NCBI RefSeq assembly: GCF_003790525.1
Contig: NZ_CP033636.1
Source of the DNA: Escherichia coli
GTDB taxonomy: Bacteria; Pseudomonadota; Gammaproteobacteria; Enterobacterales; Enterobacteriaceae
DNA: 64,000 nt
Reading direction: 5' to 3' (one strand)
In this document: positions 38,551 through 57,735 of the stretch, piece by piece
Position numbering within the stretch: position 1 is the stretch's first letter
Layout of the letters: each line of letters begins with the position of its first letter
Made by a program: the position numbers and the translations under genes
Notes under the pieces: model-generated
Told to the model about the DNA's origin: nothing
Database searches by the model: none
The model's input: only the letters and a program-made list of their open reading frames with translations

Positions 38551-39800
38551 GCGTTAACTCCTTGCTTAGCTGAAAAACTTTTTATTTCATTTATAAATTG
38601 TTGATATACCTGTAATACAGATTCTTCTGCGACATCAAGTTGCTTTGCGGAACAAAGTTCCTCTGATTTTTTGATATCAAGCACTGTACGCCCTTTGGAA
38701 GCAGCTGCCTTAAATGCTTCAGAATTTTTTATGTTAGCGGACATCAAAAGGTCCTGAACAGTTCTGATTAATTTATCCAAAACTATTCTTTCATATGGAC
38801 TTTTGTCATCAACATTGACAGCAAGAACTTTGAACCATTTTAAATTATCGCCCTTACTTGGTGATTGTTTAAACCTTTCACTTATTGTAAGCATGAAGTC
38901 TGTAGTAGAGGCGTAATCATATTCACGTGGTGACACTGCGACAAGAATCCCATCGGCCGCTTCGTCAGCAGCCCAGATCAAAGGTGAATCTTCAGGTGGA
39001 GTGTCTATAATAATCAAATCATAGTTCTGCTTCAGTACCGGTAAGATAACTTCCTTGAAACGTAGTAACAAAGACGTTCGTTCTTCTCTAGAACATTGCC
39101 AGTATTTATCTTTAAAACGAGCATCTGTCGGAAATGCCGTTATCACGTCCAAGTTTGGCAGATGCGTTGAAAAAGGCATATTAGTGATGATTTCTTCTTC
39201 AGAGAATCCTGAATCTAAATATTTTTTATACTCAGAATTTTCTTCATAAATTCCAAGGATTGCATCAATTGCTGTAAGGAAGACATCATCTTCTGAGACA
39301 CTTTGAATCATGCTGCTTCCAATCGAACCTTGTGGGTCCCATTCGATCATTAATACACGTGCATTCAGTTGTAGATCTAAAGCAGCTGCTACTGCTAAAG
39401 CTACAGATGTAGTGCTTTTCCCTGTACCGCCTTTATGATTCTGAGTAACAATAGCTCTGCTAAAGTAATGATCGCGGTACTTGGGATAACCCAGGGCATC
39501 CATTATTTTTTGAACATCCCAGCGGGTGTAAAGATGATTTTTGTTTTGATAAATAGGTGCACCAACAACTTCTTTTTCTTCTAAGTCCGAAAGTATTTTA
39601 TTGAACGTTACTCGTGACTTCCCAAAAAAATCAGAGAGATTTTTTTTATTTAAACAGTGGTTGTAGATCAGTCTATCAACACCATCAACACTATCATCAG
39701 AAACAGATACTCTTGATGAAGCCATCAGAGATTCCTTAAGAGAAATCTGCTCGCTTTTCATGCGCTGACCAACGAGGGCGATCTTTTCAAGTAAATTCAT
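38547..39800 (-). CDS. parA: ParA/SopA-family partition ATPase (type Ia, long N-terminal extension)
   Basis: ORF track 417 aa; deviant Walker A KGGTGKSTT, ~110-aa N-terminal extension typical of SopA/P1 ParA-type proteins. Confidence 0.85.
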   Translation of the reverse strand: MNLLEKIALVGQRMKSEQISLKESLMASSRVSVSDDSVDGVDRLIYNHCLNKKNLSDFFGKSRVTFNKILSDLEEKEVVGAPIYQNKNHLYTRWDVQKIMDALGYPKYRDHYFSRAIVTQNHKGGTGKSTTSVALAVAAALDLQLNARVLMIEWDPQGSIGSSMIQSVSEDDVFLTAIDAILGIYEENSEYKKYLDSGFSEEEIITNMPFSTHLPNLDVITAFPTDARFKDKYWQCSREERTSLLLRFKEVILPVLKQNYDLIIIDTPPEDSPLIWAADEAADGILVAVSPREYDYASTTDFMLTISERFKQSPSKGDNLKWFKVLAVNVDDKSPYERIVLDKLIRTVQDLLMSANIKNSEAFKAAASKGRTVLDIKKSEELCSAKQLDVAEESVLQVYQQFINEIKSFSAKQGVNA

Positions 39801-39830
39801 GGTTATGACCTTTTTGCACTGAAAACCGAC

Positions 39831-39868
39831 TTTTACGCATATATGTAAACTTTACGCATAATGCGTCC
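39831..39868. promoter_or_regulatory. candidate parA operator (TTTACGCATA direct repeats plus ACGCATAATGCGT palindrome)
   Basis: Read from sequence 30-70 nt upstream of parA start; type Ia ParA proteins autoregulate through operators at this position. Confidence 0.3.
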
Positions 39869-40199
39869 ATTTCATTGTTATACGTACAATTCTATCCTTT
39901 GTTTCAATCCTAAGCTAATGTTTGTTTACTTTTTTATGATTTTTTGTGAGCTTAACTTGCAGATGAGAGCTCAGACTCTCTAGTCCATACCTAATGCTCA
40001 TTCTTTTTAAACCACGATTCTTGTCGACTTCTCTACGCTTTGACGTTATGAGCTCCATTAATGAATCTTCACGCCTACCCTATTTCTTGCTTAGACCCTA
40101 AAATCTATCTCACCGGTGTGCTGATTTACGTTTCCTAACTGTGAATCGTTGTCGTCAGTCCAGTCTAAAGATATGAGGTGTTAATCTCTTGAGTAGGCC

Positions 40200-43100
40200 C
40201 ACTACGAATTATGGGAGCAGAGTTAGCAACCTAGCCCAGAACTGAAACCCAACTTCAGGAGGCAACCCCAGTGTGGCGATTAAGGGGGTTAAATCTGCCA
40301 GCGGCTGACAGTGTCCTAGCTGCTGCTCAGTCACACCACGCCCTGATTAAATCTCCTGCCCGGTATTGTAAGGACCGAAAAAAGCCCGTGCATTTGTGTC
40401 GGCAGACCGGCATGAAGGAATATGACGTTAATCTGTATCAGCAGGCACTTTTCGCATGATGGGAGCAAGTGATAGCAACCCCGCCCAGAACGGAAGGCCA
40501 GCATCAGGACAAAACCCAAGTTTGGCGATTAAGGGGGTTAAATTTGCAAGCGGATGACAGTGCCCCAGCTGCTGCTCAGTCACACCACGCCCTGAGTAAA
40601 TCTCTCGCCAGGTCTTGTTATGACCGAAAATAGCCCAAGCACTGGTGTCGGCAGACCGGCATACAGGAATATGACGTTAATCTGTATCAGCAGATACATT
40701 TCGCATTATGGGAGCAAGAGATAGCAACCCAGCCCAGAACTGAAGGCCAGCATGAGGACAGAACACCAGTTTGGCGATTAAGGGAGTTAAATATGCAAGC
40801 TGCTGATAGTGCCCCAGCTCCTGCTCAGTAACACCACGCCCTGATAAAATCTCCTGCCCGGTAATGTAATGACCGAAAAAAGGCCGTGCACTGGTGTCGG
40901 CAGACCGGCACGCAGGAAAATGACGTTAATCTGTATTAACAGACACATTTCGCATTAGGGGAGCAAGTGATAGCCACCCAGCCCAGAACTGAAGGCCAGC
41001 ATCAGGACAGTACCCCAGTTTGGCGATTAAGGGGGTTAAATCCGCCAGTGGCTGTAAGTGCCCGAGCGGTGTATAAGAAATATTTCCCGAAGGACAATCT
41101 TTCGCTCGTACGATGAATAAAGTGTTCAACCCGGGAGCGGGGATCACTTAACCTGCTTAGCCTAAATCTTACGTCATTCTCTAAACGGAGTTTAAGCTTA
41201 ATGGTCCTTAGAAAGTTAAAAGGACTACCCATAATGACGTCTTGAGATGGCGAATAAAGGGTTTTAATCTGCCAGCGGCTGACAGTGCCCCAGCTTCTGC
41301 TCAGTCACACCACGCCTGATTAAATCTCCCGCCAGGTCTTATTATGACCGAAAATAGTCCCCGTGCACTAGAGTCGTAAGACCGGCATACAGGAATGAAG
41401 CTTAAATCTTTATCAGGTTGCAAGGTTCGCATCATGGGAGCAAGGGCCTTGAACTGTAGGTTAACATCAGAAAATCCCAGATTGGCGATTAAGGGGGTTA
41501 AATCTGACAGCGACTGAAAGTGCCTTCAGATGCTGCTCAGGTATATTACAACCTGAAAAAATCAAGCGTCTGTTCATGCGAATATCGAAAAAAGCTATGC
41601 ACCAGTTTCGGCAGACCGGCATGGAGTAATGAGACGTTAATCTGTATCAGCTGGCGCATTTCGTATCATGGGAGCAAGTGTTAGCAACCCTGCCCAGGAC
41701 GGAAGGACACTATCAGGACTGATCCCAGTTTGGAGATTAAGGGGGTTAAATCTGCCAGTGGCTGACAGAGCCTTCTGATGCTGCTCAGACATACTATGCA
41801 ACGATAAAATCACCCGTCCGTCCTTGTGATTATCGGAAAAAGCCATGCACCGGAGTCGGCAGATCGGTATGCAGTAATGTGACTTTAATCTGTATCAGCA
41901 GGCGCAATGGGAGCAAGTGTTAGCAACCGAGCCCAGGACGGAAGGACACTATCAGGACTGAACCCCAGTGTGGCGATTAAGGGGGTTAAATCTGCAAGCG
42001 GATAACAGTGCCCCAGCTGCTGCTCAGTCACACCACGCCCTGATTAAATCTCTCGCCAGGTCTTGTTAGGACCGAAAATAGCCCGAGCACTGGTGTCGGC
42101 AGACCGGCATACAGGAATACGACGTTAATTTGTATCAGCAGGTACATTTCGCATTATGGGAGCAAGTGATAGCAACCCAGCTCAGAACTGAAGGCCTGCA
42201 TGAGGACAGAACACCAGTTTGGCGATTAAGGGGGTTAAATCTGACAGCGGCTGACAGTGCCTTCAGATGCTGCTCAGGCATACTACTCTCCCTGATATAA
42301 TCTCCCATATGTTCTTGAGATCGTCGGAAATCGCCCATGCACCGGTGTCGGCAGACCGGTATGCAGTAATGTGATTTTAATCTGTATCAGCAGGCACATT
42401 TCGTATCATGGGAGTAAGTGTTAGCAAACCGAACCCCGCCCAGCACGGAAGGTCAATATCAGACCAGAATCCCAGTTTGGCGATTAAGGGGGTTAAATCT
42501 GCAAGCTGCTGACAGTGCCCCAGCTTCTGCTCAGTCACACCACGCCCTGATAAAATCTCCTGCCCGGTAATGTGATGACCGAAAAAAGCCCGTGCACTGG
42601 TGTTGGCAGACCGGCACGCAGGAATATGACGTTAATCTGTATCAGCAGTTACATTTCGCATTATGGGAGGAAGTGATAGCCACCCAGCCCAGAACTGAAG
42701 GCCAGCATCAGGACAGTACCCCAGTTTGGCGATTAAGGGGGTTAAATCCGGCAGCGGCAGTAAGTGCCCGTGCTGTGTTAAAGGAATATTTCCCTAAGGA
42801 CAATCTTCCGATCGGCCTTTTGTATAAAGTGGTCACCCCGGGAGCGGGGATCACTTTACCTGCTTAGCCTAAATCTTACGTCAATCACTATCCGGAATTT
42901 TAGCTTAATGGTCCTGAGCAAGTTAAAAGGGGTACCCCTAATGACGTCCCCAGATGGCGATAAAGGAGTTAATTCCGCCTTCGGCTTACAGTGCCGCAGC
43001 TGCTGCTAAGGAACACCACGCCCTGATTAAATCTCCCGCCTGGCCTTGTGATGACCAAAAATTGTCCGTGCACTGGCGTCGTAAGACCGGCATACAGGAA

Positions 43101-53275: not shown

Positions 53276-53740
53276 GTAAACGCGAATGAATAATACTTTT
53301 TTATTCCGATCCTTCCGTTCGCATAAACCCCCTTTTTTTAACGTTTAGCGATTGGTGAATTTTTAAGCAAAGGGGCCTAAAGCATAATCTTTGAAAAGTA
53401 CCAGTGAACGCTTAGTAAAAGTTTGAAAGAGGGGAGGGGGTAAGATTACGTTAAGCTCAATCCTGAAGCTGATGAGACTCCTCAAGCATAAAAGTCACTT
53501 TTGATGGTTTGAAAAGCTCTAACTAGATATCGGGCAGGTAACTAAGCTTCATATCTAATCTTTTTTGTTCCCTTAATATCTATCTCTTGATTCTGAGAAG
53601 GCCGCATATCACTGTGCTCCCTGGTTCGGCAACTATCAGTTGGAGAAACTACATACAATCCTCGGCCGGTGCGTCATTCATCTAAATGCCTTTTACACCT
53701 CTGGGCGTGAGTGGGACTTTGTCTTGTCCATATGAACATC

Positions 53741-54258
53741 ATTCATTCGAATGCTTTTGGCCAATGCTATTTAAGCAAATGCTTTCTGGCTGAGTCCTTT
53801 TGCGAATGAGTCTTTGATATAACTGCATGAATTTTGGGTTGTTTGGTGTACTAACAAAACAAAGGCATTTCTTTGAATGCCATTGGAGTTGTGATGCTTC
53901 TGATATTTTTTTGATCTCATATCAAACACATAGTCCTTCTGATGCCCAATGTCATAGATGTCTTGGACCATTCTCGCTCTTAACAAAGCTGTACTGTGTG
54001 TCATTCGACCTAATGCCATTCACCAAAATGCCTTTTTATACCACTGCATAGCTATGCTCGGGATACAGTGGCAAACAAAAGCATTTCAATGAATGATTTT
54101 TTGGGATACCGACATCAAAAGCATTTGTATGAATGTAAGAGGCGTAATCCACAAAAGGCATTCACGTGAATAGAGTGCGCACGAAACCATCTTGCTCCAC
54201 GGCATTTAATGAATGGGCTAGCATGTACGCTTGAGCCAGAAAGGCATACAGATGAATA
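53741..54258. repeat. iteron-like direct repeats (about 10 copies of a ~19-bp AAAGGCATT-N3-5-TGAATG-like motif), candidate oriV
   Basis: Copies read at about 53741, 53776, 53861, 54011, 54028, 54078, 54118, 54155, 54199, 54240; several are internally palindromic (GGCATTC...GAATGCC, ATTCACGTGAAT). Confidence 0.5.
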
Positions 54259-54396
54259 GTCAGGAGTTCGTTTGAAAAGTTACTTTTTTGCACATTAAGC
54301 CGAGATGTAAGACCAGTAGTAAAAGAAGCACTAAGCATAGCACTGATAAATAACTTATTTTTCAGCATGTTATAACCAGTGCATACCTGGTAGCTT

Positions 54397-55272
54397 TCAA
54401 CCTTGTTTGGCGAGGGCCAGCTTAGGGCTTCTTTTGAAGATCTGAAATTGTATGTCGCGACCTTTCTTAACTTCTTGATAATCGAGATATCCGATAGATT
54501 CAAGTTCCCGCATTGCTTTACGAATTATCTGGTTTTGCGTACGAATAGGGGTTGTAAGAAGCAACCTTTCCCTCAACCGTTTCATATTAACGAACAACGT
54601 ACCAGCTGGCATTGCTTCAAAATAAATATAGAGAGATTGCGCAGCTTCTTTTTTAGCCAAAATGTATAGAACCTGAAGGCTTAACAATGTCTTATGGTCG
54701 TAACGATACAGTTCCCACATAGAAGGATCCCCAACCAACTCAACAGTATCGCTTTTTGGATCAATCATAGCCTTCTGCACCAGATGCGTTACTGTGAACC
54801 GACCACTCCGAGAGTCTGAGAAGGCAAGCACTACCGATGCAAGGTTCATTAATGACTCTTTAAAGCGCGCACGAGTTCGTTTGTTGATGTTTGTTGAACT
54901 GATACCACACATCTTCGCAAACTCGTTAAAAGTCAGGGTAATCTTCTCGGAAGTAAAACCATATTTACTGAAAGCCATGATGATCCCGAGCCAGCACTTA
55001 AAGTCGGTAGACATAGATAGTTTGACACCAGTTATCTTGATGTCGTCATAACCCTCCGATCTTGCAATTTCCATACACGAAAGCTCATCAGAGGCATCAA
55101 CTTCAAAGTTTCGGTCGCGGTTTTCTTTTGTGCCGACAGGGGTAAATACACTCAATCTCAACAGGGCCACGGGCTGAACCGACTTGGACGAGTTAGGCGT
55201 CAGTTGATAAGTCTTACCTGATTCATTACTGGTTACGTCAAAAGGATGGATTAACTCGTTGTTTTTAATCAT
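54397..55272 (-). CDS. putative replication initiator (Rep) protein
   Basis: ORF track 291 aa; flanked on both sides by iteron-like repeats; C-terminal region resembles winged-helix of iteron-binding Rep proteins. Confidence 0.5.
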   Translation of the reverse strand: MIKNNELIHPFDVTSNESGKTYQLTPNSSKSVQPVALLRLSVFTPVGTKENRDRNFEVDASDELSCMEIARSEGYDDIKITGVKLSMSTDFKCWLGIIMAFSKYGFTSEKITLTFNEFAKMCGISSTNINKRTRARFKESLMNLASVVLAFSDSRSGRFTVTHLVQKAMIDPKSDTVELVGDPSMWELYRYDHKTLLSLQVLYILAKKEAAQSLYIYFEAMPAGTLFVNMKRLRERLLLTTPIRTQNQIIRKAMRELESIGYLDYQEVKKGRDIQFQIFKRSPKLALAKQG

Positions 55273-55330
55273 TAACTTAACTCGTCGGTGATAAGATTTT
55301 CATTTGGCAAACTGTTTATAACATATTCTT

Positions 55331-55430
55331 GCAAATGCTTTTTACGCATTAACCTAAATGCCATAAGCATTCCAGTAAATGCCTTCCTTATTCATTCAAA
55401 TGCTTTTCGCATGCATCCGAATGCCGGATC
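55331..55430. repeat. second set of iteron-like repeats (AAATGCYTT...CATTC, 4-5 copies) upstream of the Rep gene
   Basis: Read from sequence: CAAATGCTTTTTACGCATT, TAAATGCCATAAGCATTC, TAAATGCCTTCCTTATTCATTC, CAAATGCTTTTCGCATGC, GAATGCC. Confidence 0.45.
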
Positions 55431-55748
55431 CTTTCATAAAGTCACTATAATCAATGAGTTAAAGATGCCGTGATCTTTACTTGAACTCTATTGATCTTTA
55501 GTGATCTAAAGAATTGATCTATCCTGTTGAAAACAATGATAAGTCCATATAAAACAAGGAATAGCGCTCCTTTAACAATATCTACAGATCGCAAACGGAA
55601 ATGAACGAGGGTCTACTATCATTGTTTTATTCAAGACAGTTTTTATTTTAATTTTATTAAGCAAATTTTTTGAGTTTACCTTTTAGATGTATCAGCCCTA
55701 TTTGGCAAATTTGAGGTTCATGTATCATGTAGTAAACAGGAGGAAGAT

Positions 55749-56804
55749 ATGAACAACAGCAAACATACAGTCATTGAAGTGGATACTAATCTAGTTGAAA
55801 TTGAAAAGGGATTTAATCCCCGAGAGGCGGTAATCGGAGATTTGTGTTACGAACAAGAACCTGTCAAGTCGATGATTGTGTCAATCAAACAAGCCTTTAA
55901 GGAAGGAAGGCAGGTTGATATGATCAAGGTCGTAAAAAGAAAAGGTAAATATTTAGTTCGTCAAGGTCATACTCGTTTTCATGGCTTAAAATTAGCAATT
56001 TCTGAAGGTGCTAATATTCCAAAATTATCTGTTATCCTAATCGATTATAAAAACGAAATTGAAGAATACCTTGAGAACCTCGATGGTAACAGAAGCAATG
56101 GGCTAAATCCGGTTGGGCAAGCTCATGCATTAGCTCATGCTGTTAGTCTCGGGTATTCGGTTGAAGAACTAGCAATGCGATATCAACGATCAACTACCGC
56201 AATTCGTAATATGCTAAAAATCCTTGATATGCCATTAGAGCTTCAACGTTTGATTAGCCTAAATCTAATCAAAAAAACGCTCGCCATTGAAATAATGTTA
56301 AAATATTCCAACGATCACAAAATGGTTTTAAAACATATAGAAGGTTTCTTACCTGGCGTTAAGAATATTGAGACTACAACGAGCAAAATTGTAGGCATAC
56401 CTGAACACAATGCAGCTGGAGCAGGACCAGACACCTTAAATAAAGGCGGACCAGAAAAGAAAAATTCGGCAGTCACTCGTAAGACTTTGGGTATTAAGCG
56501 CCTCTCGCATAAGAAAACAGAACGGCTAAAATCTGAATTTCTTGAGCTTGTGGAAAGTACACATACGGAATCTATAACGAATACTCAAACAGAACTAAAA
56601 TTTGGTAGAGATAGTGCACACTTGTTCAAAAATGTTAATAGTAATAATGTAATATTTTCCAATGATGGTGTTCAAATAATCTTGAATGATGAAAAGCTAA
56701 ATATTTTATTGTCTTTACTTAACGACGAAAATACAGCAATCATTGTTTCTAAACCAAAATTAGAAGAGCTTCTGGAAATTCGAGATCTCCTTAAGGAATA
56801 TTAA
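55749..56804 (+). CDS. ParB/Srx-fold N-terminal domain protein (ParB-like nuclease domain), paralog 1
   Basis: ORF track 351 aa; GFNPRE and VRQGHTRF motifs of the ParB N-terminal domain. Confidence 0.6.
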   Translation: MNNSKHTVIEVDTNLVEIEKGFNPREAVIGDLCYEQEPVKSMIVSIKQAFKEGRQVDMIKVVKRKGKYLVRQGHTRFHGLKLAISEGANIPKLSVILIDYKNEIEEYLENLDGNRSNGLNPVGQAHALAHAVSLGYSVEELAMRYQRSTTAIRNMLKILDMPLELQRLISLNLIKKTLAIEIMLKYSNDHKMVLKHIEGFLPGVKNIETTTSKIVGIPEHNAAGAGPDTLNKGGPEKKNSAVTRKTLGIKRLSHKKTERLKSEFLELVESTHTESITNTQTELKFGRDSAHLFKNVNSNNVIFSNDGVQIILNDEKLNILLSLLNDENTAIIVSKPKLEELLEIRDLLKEY

Positions 56805-56821: not shown

Positions 56822-57022
56822 GTGATTAAACCTATAAAGCTGACTCTTATCGATAATTATAGTGATTTGCTTCTAACTCATGAAGTCCTTAAACGCAACA
56901 TGGAAGAGTTAGAACACGGTAAACGTTTTGATCAATTTCCTGAAGGGCATGACCACTATGAAAAAACTGTGAAAGAAGCTGTAGCAATCGTAGAGGCACG
57001 TTTGGAGGTGTTTCGAAAATGA
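56822..57022 (+). CDS. hypothetical small protein (66 aa)
   Basis: ORF track (GTG start); GAGGA upstream; stop overlaps start of next gene (ATGA). Confidence 0.4.
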   Translation: MIKPIKLTLIDNYSDLLLTHEVLKRNMEELEHGKRFDQFPEGHDHYEKTVKEAVAIVEARLEVFRK

Positions 57023-57735
57023 AATCTCTTTTCTTTACTCTTGATGGTCATATGGTACCAGCCTCAGTGAATGTATCACTTAACGGAGATGGAAATTATT
57101 ATGCACCTATCGAAAGAGAATGTAACGAATGTGCGGGCACAGGCCACAAAGGGGCTGATTTATGTGAAAAGTGTCATGGGGTACAAACAGTTGGACCCAT
57201 TATTGAAAAATTAGTGGCACTAGAGCCAATTACCTTTCTCGATAACATTCCGGAACTGCGTGTTAACCCAACACTCGAAGCATGGAAATCCAGAAACCAC
57301 GTCCTTATTGAGAAAGCAAAAAAGGCTAACACTAAGTTTTCTAATAGTATATTGGCGCAATTAGACAATAACCGTTTCTTGACAGAACGCCAGCTGGATT
57401 GTTTCTTTACAACTTTTGATGTGATGTTGTCTGAAACTCCGGAAAATGAACAAGAAATTTTAAAACATAGCTACAATATCGGCCAGGTCATAAGCATTGA
57501 ACTAACATTTACTGAAGTCAGGGCCGCGTACGCAAAAAGTAAAGGGAGTTATTTTTTTACATTTACTGGTAAAGTTAGAAATGACGGGATCGCTTTAACG
57601 GCCGATAAACAGGATCACATTTTATTGGGTGAACGTTATCATTTGACTGGAAAAGTCAGAAAATTCTATGAATTTGATTCGAAAAATTATGCTGCAATAA
57701 CAGTTTTTAAGTTAAATAAACTCCAAGACAGTTAA
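57019..57735 (+). CDS. hypothetical protein with DnaJ-type CxxCxGxG zinc-finger motif
   Basis: ORF track 238 aa; CNECAGTGHKGADLCEKCHG. Confidence 0.5.
   Translation: MKSLFFTLDGHMVPASVNVSLNGDGNYYAPIERECNECAGTGHKGADLCEKCHGVQTVGPIIEKLVALEPITFLDNIPELRVNPTLEAWKSRNHVLIEKAKKANTKFSNSILAQLDNNRFLTERQLDCFFTTFDVMLSETPENEQEILKHSYNIGQVISIELTFTEVRAAYAKSKGSYFFTFTGKVRNDGIALTADKQDHILLGERYHLTGKVRKFYEFDSKNYAAITVFKLNKLQDS

What the first reader, a model, noticed from the sequence alone, without database searches (positions are those of the whole stretch)
53741..55430. Replicon embedded next to the pilin operon: Rep-like gene flanked by iteron-like repeats on both sides
About ten copies of a 19-bp AAAGGCATT…TGAATG-like element lie downstream of a 291-aa Rep-like gene and four or five related copies lie upstream. 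Iterons flanking a rep gene on both sides is an arrangement I recall for the IncHI1 RepHI1A replicon. The small ORFs called inside the iteron field are probably not genes.
Basis: partly seen in the sequence, partly recalled or inferred. Interest (0 to 1): 0.45.

Follow-up and report, generated by a model that had tools for sequence, protein, structure and literature searches.

The report
Known IncHI2 plasmid replicon RepHI1A(R478)
This stretch is the already described RepHI1A-type replication unit of IncHI2 resistance plasmids such as R478: an initiator gene with its binding repeats on both sides, laid out like the phage P1 plasmid origin, so it is real but ordinary.

Summary
A 20-bp repeat (CATTCAnnnnAATGCyTTTt) occurs 10-11 times downstream of the 291-aa gene at 54397-55272 (-). 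It occurs five more times in tandem upstream, at 21-23 bp spacing. No comparable match exists elsewhere in the 64 kb.

The gene product passes Pfam's Rep3_N and Rep3_C thresholds and is 44.6% identical to P1 RepA. The locus is 98-99% identical to plasmid R478, where this rep is gene 1. More than 1,100 IncHI2 plasmids carry it. It is the syntenic orthologue (86% aa) of the R27 RepHI1A initiator, beside the trhA pilin operon. It is therefore RepHI1A(R478), reported as autoreplicative by Page et al. 2001.

What this check adds is anatomy. Together with the five upstream repeats they mirror P1 oriR. They are conserved with R27 at 81-83%, against 24-45% for other non-coding DNA.

The likely mechanism is that the upstream block is the origin and rep operator, and the downstream field is an incA-like copy-control and incompatibility locus. 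The small ORFs in the field are not genes.

Novelty: already known. Interest is low.

The parts
54397..55272 (-). rep gene (291 aa), the RepHI1A(R478)-type iteron-binding initiator
   Evidence: The ORF is listed. Pfam Rep3_N matches residues 98-215 and Rep3_C matches 231-275, both above their gathering scores. It is 100% identical to WP_000594612.1 'RepB family plasmid replication initiator' in IncHI2 plasmids. It is 86.3% identical to the R27 rep and 44.6% identical to P1 RepA. pN/pS against R27 is 0.11.
55324..55429 (-). Five tandem origin-proximal iterons (55324-55343, 55347-55366, 55368-55387, 55389-55408, 55410-55429). In the rep orientation they read nnAAGGCATTTnnnTGAATG. This is the probable RepA-binding core of the origin and the rep operator, equivalent to P1 incC.
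   Evidence: The 23/21/21/21 bp spacing is read from the coordinates. The block is 83% identical to R27 while the flanks are 42-45% identical. In P1, five incC iterons at 21-22 bp spacing sit at the same place and contain the repA promoter PrepA. A relative with 62% Rep identity has five iterons at 21-bp spacing at the same place.
55315..55323 (-). Candidate extended -10 element (TGTTATAAA on the - strand) for the rep promoter, directly downstream of the last iteron
   Evidence: This was read from the sequence. It is only a candidate: the consensus scan found no sigma-70 site on the - strand here, and the element is not conserved in R27.
55449..55461 (+). Exact match to the IHF consensus WATCAANNNNTTR, lying in the spacer between the iterons and the GATC heptamers
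   Evidence: Found. R27 has one mismatch at the aligned position. Function was not tested.
55470..55520 (-). Four AGATCA[AC] heptamers carrying Dam (GATC) sites, at 55470-55476, 55491-55497, 55501-55507 and 55514-55520. This is the probable unwinding and methylation-sensing part of the origin.
   Evidence: This is the densest GATC cluster in the window: 4 sites in 50 bp, against a window average of 3.4 per kb. It is conserved in R27 (81% identity for 55468-55541). The 62%-identity relative has three AGATCA[GAC] heptamers. P1 oriR has five AGATCCN Dam sites at the same relative position.
55525..55542 (-). Two adjacent DnaA-box-like 9-mers on the - strand: TTATCATTG (5/9 match to TTATCCACA) and TTTTCAACA (7/9 to the strict consensus, 8/9 to the relaxed one)
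   Evidence: Found and by reading the sequence. At the homologous position R27 has TTATCCACG plus TTTTCCACA. The 62%-identity relative has TTATCCACA. P1 has TTATCCACATTATCCACT, annotated as a DnaA binding site.
53675..54258 (.). Downstream iteron field of 10-11 copies in both orientations. Copies in the + sense start at 53675, 53740, 53768, 54002 and 54017. Copies in the - sense start at 53860, 54076, 54116, 54153, 54196 and 54239. This is the probable incA-like copy-control and incompatibility locus.
   Evidence: The corresponding R27 field has 17 copies of the same sequence in a different arrangement. P1 incA has 9 iterons right after repA. An ISVsa5 insertion at about 53991-54000 is tolerated in pCFSA300-1.

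Best explanation
This is the RepHI1A-type replicon of an IncHI2 plasmid. It is called RepHI1A(R478) by Page et al. 2001 and also appears as 'repHIA' in later literature. It is one of two replicons of this plasmid family and is an iteron-controlled theta replicon with the same layout as the P1 plasmid-prophage replicon.

Shown here:
- The gene encodes a Rep_3 initiator that is homologous to P1 RepA and orthologous to the R27 RepHI1A initiator.
- Its cognate 20-bp repeats lie on both sides of the gene.
- The upstream block (five phased repeats, four Dam-site heptamers, DnaA-box-like 9-mers; 55324-55542) is the only strongly conserved non-coding DNA of the locus.

Inferred from the P1 homology and the established P1/F/RK2 iteron model:
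- Rep monomers bind the five phased upstream iterons.
- With host DnaA and possibly IHF, they open the adjacent A+T-rich GATC-heptamer region, where the host replisome is loaded.
- Dam methylation state of the heptamers gates re-initiation.
- Rep bound to the same iterons represses its own promoter.
- The 10-11 downstream iterons titrate Rep and pair with origin iterons ('handcuffing'). This sets a low copy number and causes incompatibility with any plasmid carrying the same iterons, including IncHI1 plasmids.
For: Identity. The interval 53500-55700 matches 1118 plasmid records at 95% identity or more, and 953 of them at 99% or more. The listed records are large (148-390 kb) plasmids of Escherichia and Salmonella, and those examined are typed IncHI2A/MOBH. 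R478 itself is 98-99% identical across the whole non-coding anatomy, with rep as its first gene. The R27 rep is 86% identical and lies in identical synteny.

Literature. IncHI2 plasmids are stated to carry RepHI1A and RepHI2 (PMC4855149). Page et al. 2001, 'two autoreplicative regions of R478: RepHI2A and RepHI1A(R478)', is cited in PMC4980987 and PMC8490738. PMC8490738 says the other R478 replicon has twelve 80-81-bp iterons, so the short-iteron replicon here is RepHI1A(R478).

Rep family.

Iterons. R27 iterons fit the same matrix, with 4(+1) copies upstream and 17 downstream.

P1-type layout. The annotated P1 record gives this order: DnaA boxes, five Dam sites, a 40-bp gap, five incC iterons containing PrepA, a 57-bp gap, repA, then nine incA iterons. 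The window gives: DnaA-like 9-mers, four Dam heptamers, a gap of about 40 bp, five iterons, a 51-bp gap, rep, then 10-11 iterons. A relative with 62% Rep identity and a different iteron sequence keeps the same order.

Phylogenetic footprint against R27. The iteron block is 83% identical and the GATC/DnaA block 81%. The rep CDS is 73% identical at nucleotide level, and other non-coding segments are 24-45%. Rep is under purifying selection, with pN/pS = 0.11.
Against: - No replication, binding or incompatibility test can be run here, and the two primary papers (Page 2001; Newnham & Taylor 1994) were not readable. Their content is known only from titles and citing papers.
- The DnaA-box-like 9-mers are poor in IncHI2 (5/9 and 7/9), unlike those of R27 and P1.
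- No consensus sigma-70 promoter was found for rep.
- Assigning 'origin' to the upstream block and 'control' to the downstream field rests on analogy with P1 and on conservation, not on deletion data seen here.
- The replicon is dispensable in at least one natural plasmid: IS1B interrupts rep in pSI115-1. This is expected for a two-replicon plasmid, but it shows the replicon is not essential.
Confidence: 0.9

Rival explanations
1. The replicon is real, but the origin lies in, or also in, the downstream iteron field between rep and trhA, and the five upstream iterons serve only as the rep operator.
For: The downstream field has more copies and higher-scoring ones. It also contains DnaA-box-like sites, TAATCCACA at 54145 and TTTTGCACA at 54286. 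The upstream DnaA boxes are degenerate in IncHI2.
Against: The downstream field is poorly conserved in arrangement between IncHI2 and R27 (43% column identity; different copy number and period). It tolerates an IS insertion. It has no GATC cluster. The upstream block matches annotated P1 oriR element for element and is conserved in a relative with 62% Rep identity.
Confidence: 0.08
2. In IncHI2 plasmids this is a decaying or silent replicon. It is kept only as an incompatibility or Rep-titration determinant, and replication is carried by the other replicon (RepHI2, with long iterons).
For: The DnaA boxes are degenerate relative to R27. At least one natural plasmid carries rep disrupted by IS1B. 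No clear promoter was found.
Against: In the protein (tblastn) search the best rep match is at least 99% identical in 1107 records, and 4988 of the 5000 records counted have one place covering at least 80% of the protein. Strong purifying selection acts on the protein and the origin block is conserved at 81-83%. The title of Page et al. 2001 calls RepHI1A(R478) an autoreplicative region (PMC4980987 reference list). The RepHI1A protein was detected by proteomics in IncHI1 plasmids (PMC5390554).
Confidence: 0.05
3. The downstream repeats are not replication elements. They would instead be operators for the adjacent trhA pilin operon, or a centromere for the neighbouring ParB-like protein.
For: The field lies directly upstream of trhA, between 53675 and the trhA start at about 53248. 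A ParB-like gene flanks the locus at 55749-56804.
Against: The downstream repeats have the same sequence as the five phased repeats next to rep. The arrangement is the one annotated as RepA-binding incA in P1. The repeat sequence changes together with Rep in the 62%-identity relative, which has no trhA operon or ParB-like gene nearby.
Confidence: 0.03

Closest known systems
RepHI1A(R478) replicon of IncHI2 plasmid R478 (Page, Whelan & Colleran 2001; R478 sequence by Gilmour et al. 2004, NC_005211/BX664015)
   Same: It is essentially the same DNA. Non-coding identity is 98-99% and all iteron positions are shared. The rep gene is R478 gene 1, and the neighbours are the same.
   Different: There are only a few point differences, for example one base in the iteron at 55347 and one base beside the DnaA-like 9-mers. 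The R478 initiator carries a different protein accession from the window's (WP_000594611.1 against WP_000594612.1). Naming differs between papers: Page's 'RepHI2A' is the other, long-iteron replicon, while later papers list 'repHI2A+repHI2C' for IncHI2 (PMC6339943). I could not verify which label maps to this gene.
RepHI1A replicon of IncHI1 plasmid R27 (Newnham & Taylor 1994; NC_002305 about 38.3-40.6 kb)
   Same: It is an orthologue: Rep is 86% identical, the synteny inside Tra2 next to trhA is the same, and the iteron sequence is the same on both sides. The five upstream iterons and the GATC heptamers are conserved at 81-83%.
   Different: R27 has good tandem DnaA boxes (TTATCCACG, TTTTCCACA) where IncHI2 has degenerate ones. 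The R27 downstream field has 17 copies, 14 of them tandem with a 43-44 bp period, against 10-11 irregularly spaced copies of mixed orientation here. Synonymous sites are saturated.
P1 plasmid-prophage R replicon (oriR - repA - incA)
   Same: The initiator is homologous (44.6% identity over 92% of the protein, E = 1e-66). The order and spacing of elements are the same: DnaA boxes, Dam-site heptamers, a gap of about 40 bp, five iterons at about 21 bp spacing, a gap of about 51-57 bp, rep, then a downstream iteron cluster.
   Different: The iteron sequence is unrelated (P1 GATGTGTGCTGGAGGGAAA against GGCATTTnnnTGAATG). There are four heptamers of AGATCA[AC] rather than five of AGATCCN. The DnaA boxes are degenerate. 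No parAB operon follows the downstream field; the trhA transfer operon follows instead. It is not a member of the P1 incompatibility group.
RepFIB-type replicons of Klebsiella and E. coli F-type plasmids
   Same: They belong to the same Rep subfamily, with 42-46% identity over 97% of the protein.
   Different: They have different iterons and different plasmid backbones. They were not examined further.

Membership tests
RepHI1A replicon of IncHI plasmids (R27 / R478) | Initiator orthologous to the R27/R478 RepHI1A protein | tested here: met
   Rep is 86.3% identical over 291/291 aa to the R27 rep. The gene matches R478 gene 1.
RepHI1A replicon of IncHI plasmids (R27 / R478) | Location inside the Tra2 transfer region, next to trhA-trhL-trhE-trhK | tested here: met
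   Neighbouring genes hit TraA-family (weak), TraL and TraE models. The gene order is the same in R478, R27 and pEGY1-MCR-1.
RepHI1A replicon of IncHI plasmids (R27 / R478) | Short (about 19-20 bp) iterons of the CATTCAnnnnAATGC type on both sides of rep | tested here: met
   Shown. R27 copies fit the same matrix.
RepHI1A replicon of IncHI plasmids (R27 / R478) | The cloned fragment replicates autonomously | not testable with these tools
   Only the title of Page et al. 2001 ('two autoreplicative regions ... RepHI1A(R478)') was seen, in reference lists. The paper itself is not held.
RepHI1A replicon of IncHI plasmids (R27 / R478) | Iteron-mediated incompatibility with IncHI1 plasmids | not testable with these tools
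   The shared iteron sequence with R27 predicts it. There is no experiment here.
Rep_3 iteron-binding initiators (Pfam PF01051 + PF21205) | WH1 and WH2 domain matches above Pfam gathering scores | tested here: met
   Rep3_N scores 30.3 bits against a cut-off of 22.4. Rep3_C scores 21.9 against 21.1, which is marginal.
Rep_3 iteron-binding initiators (Pfam PF01051 + PF21205) | Detectable sequence relative with a solved structure (RepE, pi, pPS10 RepA) | tested here: not met
   phmmer against PDB sequences gave no match at E <= 1. This is not a defining feature, only a check, and the fold was not modelled.
P1-type replicon layout (oriR-repA-incA) | Initiator homologous to P1 RepA | tested here: met
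   44.6% identity, 92% coverage, E = 1e-66.
P1-type replicon layout (oriR-repA-incA) | Five same-orientation iterons at about 21 bp spacing immediately upstream of rep | tested here: met
   Copies start at 55324/55347/55368/55389/55410. P1 incC copies 10-14 are listed.
P1-type replicon layout (oriR-repA-incA) | Cluster of GATC-containing heptamers next to the iterons | tested here: met
   Four AGATCA[AC] heptamers lie in 51 bp, the densest GATC cluster in the window. P1 has five Dam sites.
P1-type replicon layout (oriR-repA-incA) | Tandem DnaA boxes at the outer edge of the origin | tested here: inconclusive
   The window has TTATCATTG plus TTTTCAACA, matching 5/9 and 7/9. R27 and the 62%-identity relative have good boxes at this place.
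P1-type replicon layout (oriR-repA-incA) | Second iteron cluster downstream of rep (incA) | tested here: met
   There are 10-11 copies in 53675-54258. P1 has nine.
P1-type replicon layout (oriR-repA-incA) | rep promoter embedded in the origin iterons (autorepression) | tested here: inconclusive
   The scan found no consensus promoter. There is only a candidate extended -10 at 55315-55323, next to the last iteron.
P1-type replicon layout (oriR-repA-incA) | Dependence on Dam methylation and DnaA | not testable with these tools
   This needs dam and dnaA host tests.

The most novel reading that the evidence does not exclude
In the IncHI2 lineage, the RepHI1A-type origin may have lost functional DnaA boxes that are intact in R27, P1 and a relative with 62% Rep identity. 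It may therefore initiate in a DnaA-box-independent way. Alternatively it may work mainly as a back-up, copy-control or incompatibility module for the long-iteron RepHI2 replicon. A plasmid-borne Dam-family methylase gene lies about 3.3 kb away and could service the origin's GATC heptamers in hosts that lack Dam. I could not check whether Page et al. 2001 already discuss this.
Probability: 0.1. Interest if true: 0.3.

Novelty: already known. Interest (0 to 1): 0.1.

Why it matters
IncHI2 plasmids are major carriers of mcr-1, mcr-9, ESBL and heavy-metal resistance genes, and this replicon is part of their conserved backbone. For a genome scan, the value is a correct annotation: the window is an IncHI2 (R478-like) plasmid backbone, and this interval is one of its two replicons. 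The element-by-element map given here covers the origin iterons, Dam heptamers, degenerate DnaA boxes and the incA-like field. It may help in designing mini-replicons, incompatibility-based curing tools or typing targets. It does not open a new biological question.

Tried and rejected
1. The primary papers were not held (Page 2001, PMID 11390690; Newnham & Taylor 1994, PMID 8196547; Sherburne 2000, PMC105367). Published details of minimal-replicon mapping could therefore not be compared with this analysis.
2. NCBIfam has no model that hits the Rep protein. PDB sequence search gave no hit. I judged structure prediction and large homologue searches unnecessary, because Pfam thresholds and 44.6% identity to P1 RepA already settle the family.
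3. The consensus promoter/terminator scan found no rep promoter. It found one 'terminator-like' hairpin at 53864-53881, which is just the palindromic core of an iteron.
4. I looked for the second IncHI2 replicon in the window. tblastn with Rep finds only the gene itself, so the second replicon lies outside the window.
5. I tested the small ORFs (82, 74, 113, 61, 44 and 41 aa) as possible genes. They have no Pfam family. Their only similarity to R27 is translated iterons, and the 61-aa ORF is 54% iteron sequence. They are rejected as genes.
6. I considered whether the downstream repeats are trhA operators or a ParB centromere. This is rejected because their sequence is identical to the origin iterons and because of the P1 incA precedent.
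7. dS between the IncHI2 and R27 rep genes could not be computed because synonymous sites are saturated (pS = 0.88). Only pN/pS is reported.

Full report
**Observation.** The region was read directly, and ORFs and repeats were listed. A 291-aa ORF lies at 54397-55272 on the minus strand. A 20-bp element, CATTCAnnnnAATGCyTTTt on one strand, recurs on both sides of it.

A position-weight matrix built from ten copies found 16 hits of at least 12 bits on both strands of the 64 kb window. All 16 lie between 53675 and 55408, and the best score elsewhere is 11.8 bits. Four copies that were not used to build the matrix (53768, 54002, 54153, 54239) score 13-22 bits. The core ATTCNNNNNAATGC occurs exactly 12 times in the window, 11 of them in this locus. 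With one mismatch allowed there are 44 matches against 25.5 +/- 5.2 in shuffles.

Downstream of the gene, at lower coordinates, there are ten gap-free copies plus one variant with a one-base shorter spacer (54196-54215), in mixed orientation. Upstream there are five copies in one orientation starting at 55324, 55347, 55368, 55389 and 55410, about two helical turns apart. Its start coordinate misses the outermost copy at 53675.

**What the gene is.** The product passes the Pfam gathering scores for both domains of iteron-binding initiators: Rep3_N 30.3 bits against 22.4, and Rep3_C 21.9 against 21.1. NCBIfam has no model for it, and no solved structure is detectable by sequence. It is 44.6% identical over 92% of its length to RepA of phage P1 (E = 1e-66). 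It is 42-46% identical to RepFIB-type initiators.

**Where it comes from.** The interval 53500-55700 matches 1118 plasmid records at 95% identity or more, 953 of them at 99% or more. The listed records are large plasmids (148-390 kb) of Escherichia and Salmonella, and those examined are typed IncHI2A/MOBH. In the IncHI2 prototype R478 (NC_005211) this rep is gene 1, followed by the 354-nt trhA gene, then trhL, trhE and trhK. The R478 sequence is 98-99% identical to the window across all non-coding parts, with every iteron position shared.

In the IncHI1 prototype R27 the orthologue (86.3% aa identity) lies at 39480-40355. It sits in the same place, between the trhA operon and a block made of a ParB-like gene, a 66-aa ORF, a Zn-finger gene and a Dam gene.

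The literature states that IncHI2 plasmids carry RepHI1A and RepHI2 replicons (PMC4855149). Page et al. 2001 characterised 'two autoreplicative regions of R478: RepHI2A and RepHI1A(R478)' (reference lists in PMC4980987 and PMC5347186). The other R478 replicon has twelve 80-81-bp iterons (PMC8490738), so the short-iteron locus here is RepHI1A(R478). The primary papers could not be opened.

In the rep orientation, the elements upstream of the ATG at 55272 run in this order:
- A 51-bp leader.
- The five iterons (55324-55429).
- A spacer of about 40 bp containing an exact IHF consensus (55449-55461).
- Four AGATCA[AC] heptamers, each with a GATC site (55470-55520). This is the densest GATC cluster in the window, 4 sites in 50 bp against an average of 3.4 per kb.
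- Two adjacent DnaA-box-like 9-mers, TTATCATTG and TTTTCAACA (55525-55542).

The annotated P1 record shows the same order and nearly the same distances: DnaA boxes, five Dam sites in AGATCCN heptamers, 40 bp, five incC iterons at 21-22 bp spacing that contain the repA promoter, 57 bp, repA, then nine incA iterons.

R27 keeps the five iterons and four heptamers and has good DnaA boxes (TTATCCACG, TTTTCCACA) where IncHI2 has degenerate ones. A plasmid whose Rep is only 62% identical (pCFSAN024441_02) has TTATCCACA, three AGATCA[GAC] heptamers and five iterons at 21-bp spacing. Its iterons have a different sequence (GCGGTTAnnTTCATAAT). It also has downstream copies in both orientations. The layout is therefore conserved while the iteron sequence changes with the protein.

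**Conservation.** Against R27, the iteron block is 83% identical and the GATC/DnaA-like block 81%. This is higher than the rep coding sequence at nucleotide level (73%). The leader, the spacer, the distal upstream DNA and the downstream field score 24-45%. Rep is under purifying selection, with pN/pS = 0.11 and saturated synonymous sites.

The downstream field keeps the iteron sequence but not the arrangement. R27 has 17 copies, 14 of them tandem with a 43-44 bp period. IncHI2 has 10-11 irregularly spaced copies.

**Mechanism.** The steps below are inferred from the P1 homology and the established iteron model, not shown here.
- The upstream block 55324-55542 is the origin. Rep binds the phased iterons and, with host factors, opens the A+T-rich heptamer region, whose Dam methylation state gates re-initiation.
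- The same iterons act as the rep operator.
- The downstream field acts like P1 incA. It titrates Rep and pairs with the origin to hold copy number low, and it determines incompatibility. Because R27 iterons fit the same matrix, cross-incompatibility with IncHI1 is predicted.

Two weak points remain. No consensus rep promoter was found; there is only a candidate extended -10, TGTTATAAA, at 55315-55323. The DnaA boxes are degenerate.

**Natural variants.** In pSI115-1 an IS1B element interrupts rep at about 54591-54599, removing the WH2 domain. In pCFSA300-1 an ISVsa5 element sits in the downstream field at about 53991-54000. Both plasmids carry other replicons. The replicon is therefore dispensable when back-ups exist, as reported for R27, where either RepHI1 replicon can sustain replication (PMC4853401, citing Gabant 1993).

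**Small ORFs.** The ORFs of 41-113 aa inside the repeat fields have no Pfam family. Their only similarity to R27 is translated iteron sequence.

**Verdict.** The element is an already described replicon, RepHI1A(R478), with a P1-type layout. Novelty is 'already known' and interest is low.

Noticed in passing
window 55525-55542, compared with R27 NC_002305 at about 40.6 kb: The two tandem DnaA boxes at the outer edge of the origin are good in R27 (TTATCCACG, TTTTCCACA), in P1 and in a relative with 62% Rep identity. They are degenerate in IncHI2 (TTATCATTG, TTTTCAACA), and R478 has the same degenerate sequence.
   Followed up: partly
window 58833-59606 (-): A plasmid-borne Dam-family adenine methyltransferase gene lies about 3.3 kb from an origin built around GATC heptamers. 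It is conserved at the same place in R27 and R478.
   Followed up: no
window 55749-56804 (+): A 351-aa ParB-like protein is transcribed divergently from the origin. It hits Pfam HTH_ParB, and its TIGR00180 score is below the cut-off. No adjacent ParA gene is present. It is conserved in R27 and R478 but annotated as hypothetical.
   Followed up: no
window 57019-57735 (+): A 238-aa protein has a weak DnaJ-type CXXCXGXG zinc-finger match and is annotated 'zinc finger-like domain-containing'. It belongs to the conserved block next to the replicon in R27 and R478.
   Followed up: no
L010 (NZ_CP050763.1 pSI115-1) and L011 (NZ_CP033382.2 pCFSA300-1); insertion points map to window ~54591-54599 and ~53991-54000: There are natural IS insertions: IS1B inside rep and ISVsa5 inside the downstream iteron field. 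pEGY1-MCR-1 also has IS421 between trhL and trhA.
   Followed up: yes
R27 NC_002305 38336-39007: The R27 downstream field is a regular array of 14 iterons with a 43-44 bp period, plus 3 inverted copies near rep. This is quite unlike the irregular IncHI2 field, so the control locus turns over quickly while the origin block stays fixed. R27 also has an annotated 'hypothetical protein' inside this array, which is probably spurious.
   Followed up: partly
window 54321-54336 / 54420-54435: A 16-nt inverted repeat, 94% complementary, has arms 83 nt apart that bracket the rep stop codon (I15). No function was assigned.
   Followed up: no
nomenclature, not a coordinate: Replicon names clash between papers. 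Page 2001 uses 'RepHI2A' for the long-iteron IncHI2-specific replicon, while later comparative papers list 'repHI2A + repHI2C' for IncHI2 (PMC6339943, PMC9448873). In the PLSDB records, MOB-suite types R27 only as IncFIA.
   Followed up: partly
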